Assembly (NCBI GenBank): GCA_039096225.1
Contig: JBBPEB010000027.1
Coordinates: 806,001 to 870,000, forward strand
DNA length: 64,000 nucleotides
Direction of reading: 5' to 3'
Source of the DNA: Blastocystis sp. Blastoise
Lineage: Eukaryota > Protista > Bigyra: Opalinata
Shown here: positions 2,191 through 48,672 of the stretch, one piece after another
Layout: every line of letters starts with the position of its first letter
Position numbering within the stretch: position 1 is the first letter of the stretch
Notes under the pieces: model-generated
The model's database searches: none
Told to the model about the DNA's origin: nothing
What the model saw: the letters and a program-made list of their open reading frames with translations, nothing else
Made by a program: the position numbers and the translations under genes

Positions 2191-5046
2191 AATTTTCTGT
2201 ATATTATAATTAAATATATATATATAAATATATATAGTTCGTTTATATGCTCAAAGAGTATATCGTTTAATTGTTGAAAGAAGATGGTTTATAAAAGAAA
2301 GAGAAATTATTAATAATAAGAAGAGAGAAATTTCTAGAATCTTAAAACAAACTACTACTGAAGAAGATGTTATTACTTTACATAAATTAGATCTTGAAAA
2401 GGTATATATTATTATTTATATATTATTTATATATTATTATTTTGTTTTATTAATTAAAATATTTGTAATAATAATATTAAATAATAATAATATCTTATAT
2501 ATATATATATATAGGTTGCTTCTGTACCTTTTGGTTATTTACAATTATCAGTTCGTCCTTATGGTTATGTATTAGATAGTGATTCTACTACTAATTTTAT
2601 GAATGATGAACCTAAAGTAACATTATCTGTTCATGAATATAATTTAGAAGGTTATGATATAATGCAAGCTATGGATTTAATGTTAGATGAAGAGAATGAA
2701 GGTAATAATAATGAACAAGATGAAGGTATTACTCCTCATACTCCTATGTTTGCTGGTGAAACACCTGATGGGGATGATAATGATAAAGATGAATATGATT
2801 TAACTGGTAATAGAAAGAGTTTAAGAAGTTTAGCTGATAAATTCTCTTTTAAGAAATCTACTAAACATATTGAAGAAATACCTGAAGAAGAAGAAGAAGA
2901 AACTAAAGAACCTGCTGTTGCTGAACCTGTTGCTCCTGCTGCTGAAACTGAAGAAAAACCAAAGAAGAAAGTTGTTAAGAAGGTTGTAAAGAAGGTAGTC
3001 AAAAAAGTTGAAGAGAATAATGATTTATTAGGTTTAGATACAAATTCTGAATCTGTTTCTGAAGAAAAGAAAGAAACAGAATCTACTCCTGTTGCTACAA
3101 CTGAAGGTGAAGAAAAACCTAAAAAGAAGATAGTTAAGAAGGTTGTAAAGAAGGTAGTCAAGAAGGTACCTAAGAAGGAAGATGAAGCTGCTCCTGCTAC
3201 TGCTACTACTAATGATAATGATTTATTAGGAATGGATACTACAACTGAGTCTACTTCTGCTGCTCCTATTACTAGTACTGAAGAAAAACCTCAAGAAGAA
3301 TCTGTACCTGCTATAGGTGCTGAAGATGATATCTTTGGTATTGGCTCTACTTCTGAATCTACTACTACTCCTGCTGTTGCTACAACTGAAAGTGAAGAAA
3401 AACCTAAAAAGAAGATAGTTAAGAAGGTTGTAAAGAAGGTAGTGAAAAAGGTAGCTAAGAAGGAAGATGAAGCTACTCCTGCTACTACTACTACTACTAA
3501 TGATAATGCTGTTGAAGATGATCTTTTAGGTATGGGTCCTTCTACTGAAGAAAAACCTAAAGAAGAACCTATTTCTGAAACTGCTCCTGCTCCTGTTGCT
3601 GCAGAAGATGATTTCCTTGGAATGGGTGCTTCTGAACCTACTTCTGCTCCTGCCGCTGAAACTGAAGAGAAACCTAAGAAGAAGATAGTTAAGAAGGTAG
3701 TCAAGAAGGTCGTTAAGAAGGCTGCTTCTCCTAAGGTTGCTGAAGAAGCTGCTCCTGCTCCTGTTGCTGAAGAAGATGATTTCCTTGGAATGGGTGCTTC
3801 TGAACCTGTTGCTCCTGCTCCTGCTACTACTGAAGAACCAGCTGCTAATGCTGTTCCTGTTTCTGAAGATGATTTCCTTGGAATGGGTGCTTCTACTGAA
3901 CCTGTTGAAACTGCTGAAACTGAAGAAAAACCTAAAAAGAAGATAGTTAAGAAGGTTGTAAAGAAGGTCGTTAAGAAGGCTGCTTCTCCTAAAGTAGAAG
4001 AAGCTGAGGATGATTTCCTTGGAATGGGTGCTTCTGAACCTACTACTGCTACTGCTCCTGTTACTGAAGAGCCTGCTGTTACTGTTGCCCCTGCTAATGA
4101 TGATGATATCTTTGGTATGGGTACTTCTGAACCTGTTGCTCCTGTTGCTGAAACTGAAGAGAAACCTAAGAAGAAGATAGTTAAGAAGATAGTCAAGAAG
4201 GTAGTCAAGAAGGCTGCTTCTCCTAAGGCTGCTGAAGAAGATGATTTCCTTGGAATGGGTGCTTCTGAACCTACTACTGCTCCTGTTACTGAAGAACCTG
4301 CTGCTCCTGCTAATGATGATGATATCTTTGGTATGGGTGCTTCTACTGAACCTACTTCTGTTCCTACTGCTCCTGCTAATGATGATGATATCTTTGGTAT
4401 GGGTGCTTCTACTGAAACTGCTCCTGTTGCTGAAACTGAAGAGAAACCAAAGAAGAAGGTTGTAAAGAAAGTAGTTAAGAAGGTAGTCAAGAAGGCTGCT
4501 TCTCCTAAGGCTGCTGAAGAAGATGATTTCCTTGGTATGGGTGCTTCTACTGAACCTGCTGCTCCTGCTCCTGTAGCTGAAGAAGATGATTTCCTTGGAA
4601 TGGGTGCTTCTGAACCTGTTGCTGAAGAAACTGAAGAAAAGCCTAAAAAGAAGGTTGTAAAGAAGGTAGTCAAGAAGGTAGTTAAGAAGGCTGCTGCTCC
4701 TGTTGCTGAAGAAGATGATTTCCTTGGAATGGGTGTTTCTAGTGAACCTGTTGCTCCTGCTCCTGTAGCTGAAGAAGAAGAAGAAGAAAAACCTAAGAAG
4801 AAGGTAGTTAAGAAGGTCGTAAAGAAGACTGCTTCTCCTAAGGCTGCTGAAGAAGATGATTTCCTTGGAATGGGTGTTTCAAGTGAACCTGTTGCTGAAG
4901 AAACTGAAGAGAAACCTAAGAAGAAGGTTGTAAAGAAGGTAGTTAAGAAGGTCGTTAAGAAGGCTGCTAAGAAAGAAGAAGAAGCTGATGAAGATTTAAT
5001 GTTTGGTGAAAAAGAACAATCTCTTGAAGATTTCTTAGGAATGTAA
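1..5046 (+). CDS. DENN-domain (Rab GEF) protein with an internal ENTH domain and a long repeat tail; 5'-partial, multi-exon
   Basis: Spliced exons give DENN core motifs (LSALMCEKRIIFVS...NPFIWHHVFVPILPAPMLDVASAPMPFLIG) and a dDENN-like EFQHSQMFERFI. An ENTH-like segment follows (ELTSN...IMESLFWRLTD..NWKHGLKALQLLSYLLINGS). The last exon (~2515-5046) ends at TAA. Confidence 0.85.
2950..5043 (+). repeat. Coding tandem repeats: EEKPKKKVVKKVVKKVVKK alternating with (E/D)DD(F/I/L)(L/F)GMG modules
   Basis: About 10 basic KKVV blocks and about 20 acidic DFLGM/DIFGM/DLLG blocks are visible in ORF 2599-5046. Confidence 0.95.
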
Positions 5047-15809: not shown

Positions 15810-17150
15810 ATGCGTGAAATTATTTCTCTTCATATTGGTCAAGCTGGTATTCAAGTAGGTAATGCTTGTTGGGAATTATATTGCCTTGAACATGGTATTG
15901 ATAACGAAGGTCATCTTTTAAATCCTGGTTCTGAAACTGAAAATCTTAACACTATGTTTTCTGAAGCTGGTTCTGGTAAACGTGTTCCTCGTGCCGTTTA
16001 CGTCGATTTAGAACCTACCGTTGTTGATGAAGTTCGTACTGGTAAATACAAGAATATGTATCATCCTGAACAACTCATTACTGGTAAGGAAGATGCCGCT
16101 AACAATTATGCTCGTGGTCATTACACTGTTGGTAAGGAAATTGTTGATTTAGTTCTTGATAAGATTCGTAAGGCTACTGATGCTTGTAATTCTCTTCAAG
16201 GATTCCTTATTTTCAACTCTGTTGGTGGAGGTACTGGTTCTGGTTTAGGTTCTCTTCTTCTTGAAAGACTTTCTGTTGATTATGGTAAGAAGTCTAAGCT
16301 TGCTTTCACTGTTTATCCTTCTCCTCAATTAGCTACTTCTGTTGTTGAACCTTACAACAGTGTTTTCGCTACTCATTCTCTTCTTGAACATACTGATGTT
16401 TGTGTTGTTCTTGATAATGAAGCTATTTATGATATTTGTCGTAATAATCTTGGAATTGAAAGACCTTCTTACACTAATCTTAATAGACTTATTGCTCAAG
16501 TTATTTCTTCCATGACTGCTTCTCTTCGTTTTGATGGTACTCTTAATGTAGATATTAATGAATTCCAAACTAACCTTGTTCCTTATCCTCGTATTCACTT
16601 TATGCTTTCTTCTTATGCTCCTGTTATTACTGCTCAAAAGGCTGCTCTTGAAAACATGTCTGTTGCTGAAATTACTAACGCTTGTTTTGATCCTGCTTCT
16701 ATGATGTGTAAATGTGATCCTCGTCATGGTAAATATATGGCTTGTTCTCTCTTATATAGAGGTGCTGTTCTTCCTAAGGATGTTACTAATGCTGTTTCTA
16801 ACATTAAGAATAAGAGAACTATTCAATTCGTTGATTGGTGTCCTACTGGTTTCAAGACTGGTATTAACTCTGAACCTCAAAGACAAGTTGAAGGTTCTGA
16901 AATGGGTAAAGTTCCTCGTGCTTGTTGTGTCCTTTCTAACAATACTGCTATTGCTGAAGTCTTTGGTAGAATTGATAAGAAGTTCGATCTTATGTATAAT
17001 AAACGTGCTTTCGTTCAATGGTATGTTGGTGAAGGTATGGAAGAAGGTGAATTCACTGAAGCTCGTGATGATTTAGCTGCTCTTGAAAAGGATTATGAAG
17101 AAGTTGGTGCTGAAGAAGACGAAGGTGAAGAAATGGGTGCTGAATATTAA
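15810..17150 (+). CDS. TUBA: Alpha-tubulin (intronless, divergent)
   Basis: [13 protein letters not shown], the GGGTGSG signature and a C-terminal acidic tail ending in EY. Confidence 0.99.
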
Positions 17151-25081: not shown

Positions 25082-27063
<1,982 letters not shown>

Positions 27064-34380: not shown

Positions 34381-35507
<1,127 letters not shown>

Positions 35508-36510
35508 TGTTCTACATATTCAAATAGAGAGTTGTTTAATATATGAGATTTATGAAATATACCTTGAAGTATAACAAAAGGATAAGAATATTTGTTTTAA
35601 GATAAGGTCATTTCCTTCCTCGTTTTTCTCTCTAATTTTTTTATATAGGTTCGAGTGTGATCGCAGAAAAAGTATAATCATGGGGATTTTAATAAGGTCG
35701 TTAGAGATATTTGGATTTCCATGATTATAAACGTTCCCTTTTTTTGTGTTTTCATTTATGATGTTTATCTTAATAAAAACTATGGATATACATATTCCTA
35801 GATAGGAATGAAAGTTTCTTCTTATTTAGATGATATATGTTGTTTGAATGTCAGTAATTTTTAGTCATTTACGATCTCTTTATTTTGATCTATTCCTTTC
35901 TTTCTTTATATAATTAGTGAAACTATTATGTTCGATCTTTTTATAAAAGCTAGATAACGTATTTATGCAACTAAGTAGTTTTATACGTTGGAATTTAAGA
36001 AATGTCAATACTTTTCAGAAAGAAGAACAAAATAGGATGATTAATGAAATTAATTAACTCTACATTTCTGGTTAATAAGAAAAATATATCTAGAATTAAA
36101 ACAATGAAAGATAAAGTTGAAATAATAATCATAATGTAGAACTACAAGCAGTAGTCATTGATTTTTTATACAATAGGGTTAAAACAATATAAATAGAAAA
36201 AGAAAGAAAATAGTCAAGAAAGTAAAAAAAAAAAATCATTATGAATAAACAAATAGTTTAAATTTTTGAAAAGTGAAAAAGAATAGAATAGAATTATATA
36301 AGATTAAATAGATATGAATATATATACATATGAAATATTGGATAATATAGATATAATAAAGATTATTACAGGATATATATACAATAAGAAAACTTTGAAT
36401 AGATGACATAAAATACAAGTTATAATATATTATTCTATATATAAATTGTATATATATAATGGGAAATGTATATATATATACGAAAAAGTATACTGACTAT
36501 AAAAAAGCGT

Positions 36511-45175: not shown

Positions 45176-45601
45176 TTCGAGAAATTAATTTATGTTTGAA
45201 GCGTAGATTCTACTATAATAATTAGACAATTACTTTAAGAATATATATAGTTACATTAATAACGATTAGGATAGGACTTTCTAAAAAAATATTAAAAAAA
45301 AAAAGAATCCCGTTTTTTTTAAATGAATAACATTATTTCTTTATAAAACTTGTTTTTTTTTAATTTAGATATATACATTCAATTGGGATATTTATTATTA
45401 ATTTATTTTCGTCTAAATAAAAATAAAATAAAACAAAACAATGATAGTTGTCACAATGAAGTTATGCCTCAGAGGATAATATATGATTATATAAGATTAT
45501 ATTACATTCAGGATACAATATACATATATGAAAACAATAAAGAATTACTAAATATATATTTTATATTATTAGAAATAAGAGGAATCGCAAAATAATTTGC
45601 T

Positions 45602-47681
45602 TTAGAATTTGAAGATACCGAAAGCATATAAACCATATAAGCAAATAATGACAGCATAAGTAACAAAGAGAACAATACCCTTCATCTTATTTAAGATAAT
45701 CTTAGGTTGTCTGAAAACGAGCATACATCCGATGGTAAGAACGAAGAAGACGATCATACCAGTAAGATGGAAATAGAAGGTTTTCATGGTAGCAGTAATA
45801 TCACCAAAGGGAAGATTACCATCATCATCAAAGAAGGTCATTAATAACCAAGGGAAACCAAGACCAACACCAATATTGACAATTTGAGAACCAATGGAGT
45901 TAGCAAGAGCCATAGAGGCGAGACCCTTCTTGGCGACAGCTAAGGATTGAATGGTATCAGGGACGGCACTACCCCAAGAAATAACAGAAAGACCAAAGAG
46001 AGATTGAAGACCAACCATGTTAGGATATATAGATATATTAATATATATATAATTATTCTGAAAAGAAATATGGAGAATATATATAATAATAATATAAATA
46101 TACATTAATTTCTTCTAAGATTTCACACCATCTTTCAATAATAGTAGCAGTAATAAAAGAATAAATAGCAATCCAAACGAAAGATAAAAGCATAGTAATA
46201 AGAGCAATATAACTGAAATCACCATTCTCTATAAGGTTATATGATAATAAGTATTTATCAAATAATAAAACAAGATATTGAATAATGTAATATATATATA
46301 TATACTCTTATGAGGTTCAGGAACAGTCCATTTAGTGAAGAATTCAGTAGGAATAGTACAAGATTTAGTTAAAACCATTATAATCATATCAATAACATAA
46401 GCAACTTGAACAGCAGCTTTATGAGGCATGCATTTCTCTAATAAGGTTTGAGTCTTGGAAACAGATCCACCAATCTTATTTTCAATAGGAGTACTGGGAG
46501 TAGTAGGAGTATTTAATAAACCGTCGGCATCAGGCTCATCATTAGTATGTAAACCACCTTCATCATGATCTTCACCACCCTATATACATAGATATATAAG
46601 GATAAGAGTAAGAATCACGAAATATCAAAAAATAAATAAATAAATAAAAAAATTAAATCAATTTAAAAAGTAATAAATAATCGTATTTTCTTGATAAGTT
46701 AAAAAATAATAATATATATTATAAATTAAATAATTTCCTTAATATATAAATAGAATTCAAATATATATATATAATAATAATAATTACATCCACAACAAGA
46801 TTTGAAAACAGTCTTTCTTAAAGTAGGATAGTAGATAATGAATAAAATATAGAGAATATAAACTATAATTAAAGAAAGACATTCCCATCTGCTGACAAGA
46901 CCATCTTGAATAGCAAGTAAAGTTAAGAATAACTCTACATAATAACTATACAAATATAATTATAAGAAATGTATAATAGTAAAAACAACATTAGAATGAA
47001 TGAAATCTTTAAAATAATAATAATTCAAAAAATAATAATAATTCAAAAAATAATAATAATTCAAAAAATAATAATAATTCAAATAAATTAATATTCAAAT
47101 AAATTAATATTCAAAACAATAATAATTCAAAAAAAAAAAACATAAACAAGACAATCACGAACAAGAGCTCTTCTCTTAATTTGAAGGGCTTCAGGAGCAC
47201 AGACGGCACAAAGACCAGGAACGACTAAGAAACCCATTAAACCAGAACCAAAAATGGAACTGACACCAAGTTCAAGAGAATCACCACCTTCAATAGCAGT
47301 AATAGTACTAATAACAATTTCAGGAGCAGCAGAACCAATAGCTAAGAAAGTAGCACCGGCAACATCTTCCTTCATATGCCATCTATCACAAAGAGCTTCA
47401 AGAGAAGGAACTAATTTAGCATCGACAACCTATAAATCAATAAATGATAGTCATGAGATATAGATTTAGAAATATTCAAAAAAAAATATGTTAAAAAAAT
47501 AAAAACGTACAGCACCAACACCAACAAGGCAGAAGAAAATAAGCCAAATTTCGACAAGTATACCAAAGAAGTTACCATCGATAAGATTTAAACATAAACC
47601 ATCAAAGAAGTTTTCACATCCTGTGGTAGCTTGTTTAGCAGCCATAAGGAATCTTCTTGCAGCAGTATCAGGGTAGTTCAT
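45602..47681 (-). CDS. K+-dependent Na+/Ca2+ exchanger (NCKX/SLC24, CaCA family); three introns have non-canonical ends
   Basis: Alpha-1 repeat DVAGATFLAIGSAAPE...GVSSIFGS and alpha-2 repeat GLSVISWGSAVPD...MALANSIGSQIVNIGVGLGFPW. Confidence 0.9.
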
Positions 47682-48672
47682 TCTTTCTTCAACAAGATAG
47701 CAAGAATAGATATATAAATGCAAAATTTCTATCTTACATTTCCATACAATATTGAAAGCAAATTGGATCTTAGATGTATTAACAGTGATTCCAGATTAAA
47801 CATAAATATTATGATGATTATCCATTTCTAAAAAAGGAAGATTATGAGGCTATATATAAGAAAGAGACCCTAATCAAAAATTTTTTTAGATTAATGACGG
47901 AAAAGCAAAGAAAATTATAATTTGAATGGCTCCTAATAGGGTATTCCCAAGAAAAGAGAACGTCGAAAAGAGAGAGGTTACGGCCCATTTATAGGTTAAA
48001 AAGGAGATGTGTCATTCATCCATCCGAAAATTCTGATTTGATTTGTCAGCATAAACAAGCAAACCAATTATTTCTCGAAAAATTGATAGACACATTTATT
48101 TTGATAACCTCATTACTTCCTTTTAAATGGCGCAATATAAGGATATATTCTATTTTCCATTGTCTAAGGTCCATTTGTTCTTCATGTTTATATAATATAA
48201 ATTATATATTTAATAAAAAAGTCATTTTTACTGGTTAGAAAAAGAAATGACTTCTATTAATGTGTTTTTTGTTATTCTCCAATAACTATTACGTTTATTA
48301 GAAAATTATATTTCTTATTTATTCCATATATGTAAATTATAGTGACTTGCGCTTAATTTCAACTGAAAAATAATAAATTTTTTCTTTGATAGAATCTATA
48401 ACTTTTTTGAATTTAGAATATAGAAATACTTTCATTAAACCATATTTTTTTATATGAATTTGTGGAAAGAATTAACGATTAGTAGTGATTTGAAGCAATA
48501 TACACTTGAAGAGCAAATATTTTTATCAAAGAATATTTTCAATGGATATATTTGAAAGTAAACTATATTACTTAATATTCATAATATCATTGAGATACCA
48601 GGAAAAAGTGAAAATGAAAAAAGCATAAGAAATAATGGTTATAATAAAATAATAATAATAAATTGTGGAGAT

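What the first reader, a model, noticed from the sequence alone, without database searches (positions are those of the whole stretch)
46025..47145. NCKX gene: three introns with TT-AG, GG-AG and GT-AT ends, each deviant base matching the adjoining exon
Intron 46946-47145 starts TTATGT instead of GTATGT, and the next exon starts TTAT. Intron 46580-46791 starts GGATGT, and the next exon starts GG. Intron 46025-46103 ends TATAT, and the previous exon ends AAT. These junctions give the expected NCKX spacing (RDCLVYYVELFLTLLAIQDG; KSCC|GGED; EEIN|PNMVG). Together with NDUFB9 this makes five cases of one rule, all in genes with strong codon bias. It points to mRNA sequence being written into intron edges, either in silico or in vivo. 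If it is real in DNA, it would be an undescribed RNA-templated editing or tolerant-splicing system.
Basis: partly seen in the sequence, partly recalled or inferred. Interest (0 to 1): 0.78.

Follow-up and report, generated by a model that had tools for sequence, protein, structure and literature searches.

The report
Intron edges overwritten by RNA reads
Five introns in two genes of a Blastocystis genome lack the normal GT or AG end in this assembly, RNA shows that the three tested are still cut out exactly, and the odd letters were likely copied in from spliced RNA reads when the assembly was polished, so this is likely a data error that breaks the public gene models rather than new biology.

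Summary
The three odd intron ends (TT-AG, GG-AG, GT-AT) are in the sequence as described. RNA contigs from two studies join the exons exactly there, and a homolog fits that protein without gaps. Two NDUFB9 ends (GT-TC, GT-AA) follow the same rule and are backed by homologs, not by RNA. In all five the changed letter is the first one from the junction where a canonical intron would differ from the spliced mRNA, and it equals the mRNA letter (chance 0.001-0.003). Otherwise these are typical U2 introns; they fail U12 and introner tests, and 109 of 116 curated introns in the window are GT-AG. The two genes rank first and second of 18 in two codon-bias measures. Best reading (0.86): spliced RNA reads overhanging into introns outvoted DNA during polishing. 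No DNA or unspliced contig covered the sites, so the genomic letter is unseen and in-vivo RNA-templated change (0.05) is not excluded. The public models P0001 and P0005 skip exons at these sites. COPB2 holds a true U12 AT-AC intron.

The parts
45602..47681 (-).
47430..47510 (-). intron 1, canonical GT-AG, 81 nt
   Evidence: joint in X1, X2, X3
46946..47145 (-). intron 2, TT-AG, 200 nt; deviant letter at 47145 (+1, T where G is the norm) equals the first letter of exon 3
46792..46945 (-). exon 3, present in RNA contigs, matches PF01699 weakly (E 0.005) and P0002 without gaps; skipped by public model P0001
46580..46791 (-). intron 3, GG-AG, 212 nt; deviant letter at 46790 (+2, G where T is the norm) equals the second letter of exon 4
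   Evidence: (bridging records)
46229..46305 (-). intron 4, canonical GT-AG, 77 nt
46025..46103 (-). intron 5, GT-AT, 79 nt; deviant letter at 46025 (-1, T where G is the norm) equals the last letter of exon 5; public model P0001 uses the upstream AG at 46059-46058 and gains 11 residues
34735..35236 (-). NDUFB9 intron, GT-TC, 502 nt; two deviant letters (34736, 34735) equal the last two letters of the upstream exon; 5-letter direct repeat
34679..34734 (-). NDUFB9 56-nt middle exon, conserved in homologs, skipped by public model P0005
34516..34678 (-). NDUFB9 intron, GT-AA, 163 nt (slides to TA-AG); deviant letter at 34516 equals the last letter of the upstream exon
   Evidence: homology only

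Best explanation
These are likely ordinary GT-AG introns whose edge letters were likely overwritten in the computer: spliced RNA reads that ran a few letters past an exon were likely aligned straight into the intron, and in highly expressed genes those overhangs would outvote the DNA reads during polishing. Shown: the odd ends in the assembly, exact splicing at three of them, and that each odd letter is the mRNA letter at the first point of disagreement. Inferred: that the cell's DNA has GT/AG there, that RNA (or cDNA) reads entered the polishing, and that a two-letter change came from two rounds.
For: (1) Putting GT/AG back in silico and letting kept overhangs win reproduces the observed 8 edge letters in 5 of 5 ends: 4 after one round, the NDUFB9 GT-TC end after two (a BWA-MEM-like clipping rule of my own, not a real aligner). 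(2) Outside the end dinucleotide the five score like the other introns, and restored they read GTATGT or TATAG, among the commonest ends in the window. (3) All 109 canonical introns of the curated 116 start GTA and end TAG, so the organism shows no sign of loose splice sites. (4) The five ends are five different pairs set only by the neighbouring exon. (5) The two genes are first and second of 18 in C-ending F/Y/N codons and lowest in A-ending codons (p 0.007); by CAI they rank 1 and 4 (p 0.04). (6) X1 contig depth is 2400-4850, which gives roughly 20-290 kept overhangs per edge, depending on read length. (7) Splicing is exact in two strains with no intron-retaining or alternative joint listed. 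(8) Exonic reads misaligned into introns are a known source of false calls (PMC8640037 passage). (9) Blastocystis ST1 has 98.3% GT-AG plus GC-AG, GA-AG and U12 classes, and none of these five pairs is named (PMC5608401 section 8).
Against: The genomic letter was never seen: no contig covered introns 1 or 4 or showed another letter at the odd sites, and two metagenome scans and one genome scan found no eukaryotic relative. How the assembly was polished is unknown here. The overhang model predicts the letters but not which ends change: 3 of 5 ends with 2 or more kept overhang lengths changed against 2 of 9 with one (Fisher p 0.20), and both NDUFB9 donors are unchanged. No hidden change beyond the dinucleotide was found in 0 of 31 ends where it could show. 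The first-mismatch pattern is also what a short cDNA conversion tract would leave. X1 may be the assembly's own RNA and is then not independent. The 109-of-109 strictness is partly circular, because my gene finder was trained on such ends.
Confidence: 0.86

Rival explanations
1. The letters are real in DNA: reverse-transcribed mRNA recombines with the gene and converts one or two letters into the intron edge (aborted intron loss), and the spliceosome tolerates the result.
For: It gives the same first-mismatch pattern and would scale with expression. Exact splicing is seen at three sites. No DNA read contradicts it.
Against: It needs two new things at once. Loss of G+1, T+2, A-2 or G-1 normally blocks splicing (established knowledge, recalled), and selection against it should be strongest in highly expressed genes. 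All 109 canonical ends in the window are GTA..TAG. Conversion tracts would have to stop after 1-5 letters five times and never remove an intron. The ST1 survey names no such classes.
Confidence: 0.05
2. The letters are DNA consensus errors of the long-read kind that happen to match the exon.
For: The window has other ends that look like a letter lost inside a TA repeat (DENN 536/539, LRR near 26245), so plain errors likely exist.
Against: Match to the exon in 5 of 6 or 7 has p 0.001-0.003; clustering in two genes has p 0.004; the five are substitutions, including T to G and G to C, which are rare letters in these introns (G 3.7%, C 4.8%).
Confidence: 0.05
3. They are a natural known class: U12 introns with variant ends, or introner elements bounded by direct repeats.
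For: Blastocystis has U12 introns and one sits in this window. All five have 2-6 letter direct repeats at the junction, against a mean of 0.95 in canonical introns, as introners do (PMC7789003 passages).
Against: U12 donor match is 2-5 of 7 and branch match 5-6 of 9, the background level, against 7 of 7 and 8 of 9 for the COPB2 intron. Terminal inverted repeats are 6-9 letters in four (canonical median 7) and 17 in one, made of TA repeat. Each keeps one canonical end and U2-like flanks. The direct repeat is created by the changed letter itself.
Confidence: 0.03

Closest known systems
False variant calls from RNA-seq reads overhanging into introns (the problem GATK SplitNCigarReads clips; PMC8640037 and PMC6067683, passages)
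   Same: Exon letters laid over the first intron letters give a wrong base at the intron edge that equals the mRNA base.
   Different: There the error is a variant call; here it would have been written into the reference. None of my 9 paper searches (listings only) listed a paper that describes this for assembly polishing.
Blastocystis ST1 intron classes: GT-AG 98.3%, GC-AG 0.5%, GA-AG 0.16%, U12 346 introns (PMC5608401 section 8)
   Same: Same genus by P0001's label; U2 majority and a U12 AT-AC intron in this window; the DENN intron may be GA-AG.
   Different: TT-AG, GG-AG, GT-AT, GT-TC and GT-AA are not among the classes named; here they are 5 of 116, each once.
U12-type introns with non-canonical ends such as AT-AA and AT-AT (PMC10639083, passages)
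   Same: Ends one letter away from a canonical pair.
   Different: No U12 donor or branch motif in any of the five.
Non-canonical introns and introner elements of Amoebophrya (PMC7789003, passages)
   Same: Short direct repeats overlapping the exon-intron boundary; RNA-supported odd ends.
   Different: There over 60% of introns are odd, with no end signature and 8-20 nt inverted repeats in the introners; here 4%, one end always canonical, U2 flanks intact.
Intron loss or sliding by cDNA recombination (search listing only; mechanism recalled)
   Same: mRNA sequence is written into the gene, more often in highly expressed genes.
   Different: The known outcome is a removed or shifted intron with working ends, not a kept intron with a broken end.

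Membership tests
U2 GT-AG intron | GT and AG terminal dinucleotides | tested here: not met
   One end is off in each of the five in the assembly; the genomic letter is unseen.
U2 GT-AG intron | Donor +3..+6 and acceptor -7..-3 fit the organism's consensus | tested here: met
   the flanks next to the five odd ends lie at the 91st-100th percentile of canonical introns; the opposite ends lie at the 17th-91st.
U2 GT-AG intron | Removed precisely from mRNA | tested here: met
   for the three exchanger introns; the two NDUFB9 introns only by homology.
U12 intron | RTATCCTT donor (motif recalled) | tested here: not met
   2-5 of 7 at +2..+8 against 7 of 7 for COPB2.
U12 intron | TTCCTTAAC-like branch site near the 3' end (motif recalled) | tested here: not met
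   5-6 of 9, as in 83 of 109 canonical introns; COPB2 8 of 9.
Introner element | 3-5 nt direct repeat at the boundary | tested here: inconclusive
   Junction ambiguity 2-6 letters, but made by the deviant letter.
Introner element | 8-20 nt terminal inverted repeat | tested here: not met
   6, 7, 9, 6 and 17 (TA repeat); canonical median 7, 95th percentile 16.6.
Introner element | Repeated family across the genome | not testable with these tools
   No whole genome is held.
RNA-overhang polishing artefact | Changed letter is the first mismatch from the junction and equals the mRNA letter | tested here: met
   5 of 5.
RNA-overhang polishing artefact | Confined to highly expressed genes | tested here: inconclusive
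   Codon-bias proxy supports it; RNA depth was obtained for one gene only.
RNA-overhang polishing artefact | Raw DNA reads show GT/AG | not testable with these tools
   No DNA run holds the introns.
RNA-overhang polishing artefact | RNA or cDNA reads entered the polishing | not tested

The most novel reading that the evidence does not exclude
In this Blastocystis lineage, mRNA-derived cDNA rewrites the first or last letters of introns in highly expressed genes, and the major spliceosome still cuts exactly at TT, GG, AT, AA and TC ends, so exon identity rather than GT/AG defines the cut. These would be snapshots of intron loss stopped halfway.
Probability: 0.05. Interest if true: 0.88.

Novelty: not a real feature. 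Interest (0 to 1): 0.15.

Why it matters
If the artefact reading holds, it is a practical warning. The most expressed genes of this assembly carry false splice-site losses, and the public models built on it are damaged: P0001 lacks 50 residues of a membrane segment and gains 11, and P0005 lacks about 20 conserved residues. [quoted passage not shown] If the letters are real in DNA, it would be a new route of RNA-to-DNA information flow together with a spliceosome that ignores its invariant letters.

Tried and rejected
No whole genome is held, so no genome-wide count. The look-up of sequencing runs listed 6 runs, 3 holding part of the stretch. X3, guessed as DNA, carries spliced joints at depth about 4, so it gave no genomic letters; X4 gave only distant pieces. 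Introns 1 and 4 had no cover in X1; that is no evidence either way. Two metagenome scans found 0 relatives among 452 and 400 pattern hits. The genome scan found 2 weak bacterial matches of 358, not used. The first gene-finder run over-split introns and was discarded. From the second run (130 introns) I dropped 21 rows and added 7 by hand, leaving 116. Ten of the dropped rows were flagged non-canonical: 3 were re-placed by hand, 1 resolved as canonical (g2), 5 were judged mis-calls near gene ends, and 1 (LRR) is uncertain. Canonical alternatives: the AG at 46059 in intron 5 and the in-frame GT at 46809 are not used by any listed contig; GT sites near intron 2 lie 1 or 2 letters out of phase with the real donor. 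Reads from a hidden intronless retrocopy were considered and rejected by reasoning: at DNA depth their overhangs would be far fewer than true intron reads. Rfam found 0 matches in the window, so no snRNA could be inspected. PMC8226300 (passages) did not bear on the question. Earlier-findings look-ups gave nothing on splice ends.

Full report
Setting. The window is AT-rich eukaryotic DNA with many introns. The last exon of the gene in question is identical to a public protein labelled Blastocystis sp. (P0001). Exons 2 and 6 pass the Pfam cut-off for PF01699 Na/Ca exchanger. No whole genome is held.

Observation. The gene lies on the minus strand, 47681-45602, with five introns. Introns 1 and 4 are GT-AG. 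Spliced this way the frame is open for 476 residues and aligns to homolog P0002 without gaps across junctions 2 and 5 and through exon 3 (262 of 412 identical).

RNA. Six runs were listed, three holding part of the stretch; four were laid, all as assembled contigs. X1 matches the exons with no other letter, at depth 2400-4850. X2 is a different strain from another study. Both show the 79-base and 200-base skips at introns 5 and 2, and both bridge intron 3 with the 5 letters expected for a 46580-46791 skip. No listed joint uses the canonical alternatives; contigs drop rare forms, so this shows the main form only. X3 carries spliced joints and is therefore not a DNA control. No contig covered introns 1 or 4 in X1, and none showed a different letter at the odd sites. 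The genomic letter was not seen. X1 may be the assembly's own RNA.

NDUFB9. Exon 1 matches Complex1_LYR. Its two coding introns end in TC (35236-34735) and AA (34678-34516), and in both the odd letters equal the end of the upstream exon. The protein joined at these ends aligns without gaps through the middle exon to 12 of 14 homologs that I picked from the 150 listed; the other two (P0006, P0059) diverge there. These junctions were not checked with RNA.

Background. A gene finder of my own gave 130 introns in 18 genes. After dropping 21 rows and adding 7 by hand, 116 remain: 109 GT-AG, all starting GTA and ending TAG; the five above; one AT-AC; and one AT-AG or GA-AG. The finder was trained on such ends, so the strictness is partly built in. 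The AT-AC intron (COPB2, 59703-59565) has a full U12 donor and an 8-of-9 branch site and serves as a positive control. The five have neither. Their flanks score as normal U2 sites and their terminal inverted repeats are at background level, apart from one TA repeat. The DENN intron at 536/539-642 is open in either reading. It lies in a TA repeat and a single exon-letter substitution does not give its sequence, so it is either the GA-AG class known in ST1 or a lost letter.

The rule and chance. In each of the five, restoring GT or AG and then replacing the first letter that differs from the spliced mRNA gives the observed edge: four in one step, the TC end in two. A random substitution at an invariant letter would match the exon 18% of the time; 5 or more of 6 has p 0.001 and 5 or more of 7 has p 0.003. 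Five introns falling in two or fewer genes has p 0.004. The two genes rank first and second of 18 for C-ending F/Y/N codons (0.52 and 0.42; tubulin 0.42) and for avoiding A-ending codons, but first and fourth by CAI. DnaJ, DENN, Snf7 and UAP56 are also biased and show no exon-matching change.

Mechanism. A spliced read that ends one to four letters past a junction can be aligned straight into the intron, because one mismatch costs less than clipping. At the depth of X1 that would be about 20-290 reads per edge (rough, read length unknown), enough to outvote modest DNA cover in a polishing step, and repeated rounds would move a second letter. The step from pattern to pipeline is inferred. Against it: the model does not say well which ends change (3 of 5 against 2 of 9, p 0.20), both NDUFB9 donors are unchanged, no hidden change was found in 0 of 31 ends where it could show, and neither DNA reads nor the polishing method were available.

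Rivals. cDNA-templated conversion would leave the same letters, but it needs a spliceosome that ignores its invariant letters in the genes where splicing matters most, in an organism whose other ends are uniform (0.05). Unrelated consensus errors probably exist in this assembly but do not explain the exon match (0.05). U12 and introner readings fail their motif tests (0.03).

What is known. Misalignment of exonic reads into introns is a recognised cause of false calls (PMC8640037, one passage; PMC6067683, passage). Blastocystis ST1 has 98.3% GT-AG, 0.5% GC-AG, 0.16% GA-AG and 346 U12 introns (PMC5608401, passages and section 8); none of the five pairs is named there. U12 introns with variant ends are described in PMC10639083 (passages) and introners in PMC7789003 (passages). 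Nine searches listed no paper on splice sites overwritten by RNA-based polishing or on in-vivo editing of intron edges; I saw listings only for papers not named here and read no supplements, where such notes could stand.

Consequence. The public models avoid the odd ends and are wrong by RNA or homology: P0001 skips exon 3 (50 residues) and adds 11 residues at intron 5, and P0005 skips the NDUFB9 middle exon.

Verdict. The pattern is real in the assembly and well beyond chance. It is most likely an artefact of the assembly (0.86), not a feature of the cell. Interest 0.15; one DNA pile-up would settle it.

Noticed in passing
window 59703-59565 (-), COPB2 (beta'-COP-like, name by recalled likeness): A true U12-type AT-AC intron, 139 nt, phase 0, with full U12 donor and a branch site about 17 letters before the AC; much longer than the roughly 40-nt U12 introns reported for ST1.
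   Followed up: partly
window 536/539-642 (+), DENN-domain gene: Donor lacks GT inside a TA repeat; reads as GA-AG (a class known in Blastocystis ST1) or AT-AG; both keep the frame.
   Followed up: partly
window about 26240-26390 (+), LRR gene: An intron seems to begin inside a long TA repeat with no GT; likely a letter lost in the repeat.
   Followed up: partly
whole window: Introns are long for Blastocystis (median 107 nt, 37-369 among canonical ones) against a 30-nt peak in ST1, and are filled with TA and TTA/AAT repeats; ends are very uniform (GTATAT 73 of 109, TATAG 89 of 109).
   Followed up: partly
window 2515-5046 (+): DENN gene ends in a long repetitive exon with repeated KKVVKK and DDFLGMG motifs, which look like endocytic adaptor-binding motifs (recalled).
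   Followed up: no
window 15810-17149 (+): Alpha-tubulin gene without introns in an otherwise intron-rich region.
   Followed up: no
window about 35520-35560 (-): NDUFB9 appears to have a short canonical intron in its 5' untranslated part just before the ATG at 35507.
   Followed up: no
genes annotated: The complete genes modelled here end in a genomic stop codon; no case of a stop made by polyadenylation, known from other Blastocystis, was needed.
   Followed up: no
run X3 on window 45300-47900: Listed as a guessed DNA run of another organism but carries spliced joints of a relative about 97% alike at depth about 4.
   Followed up: no
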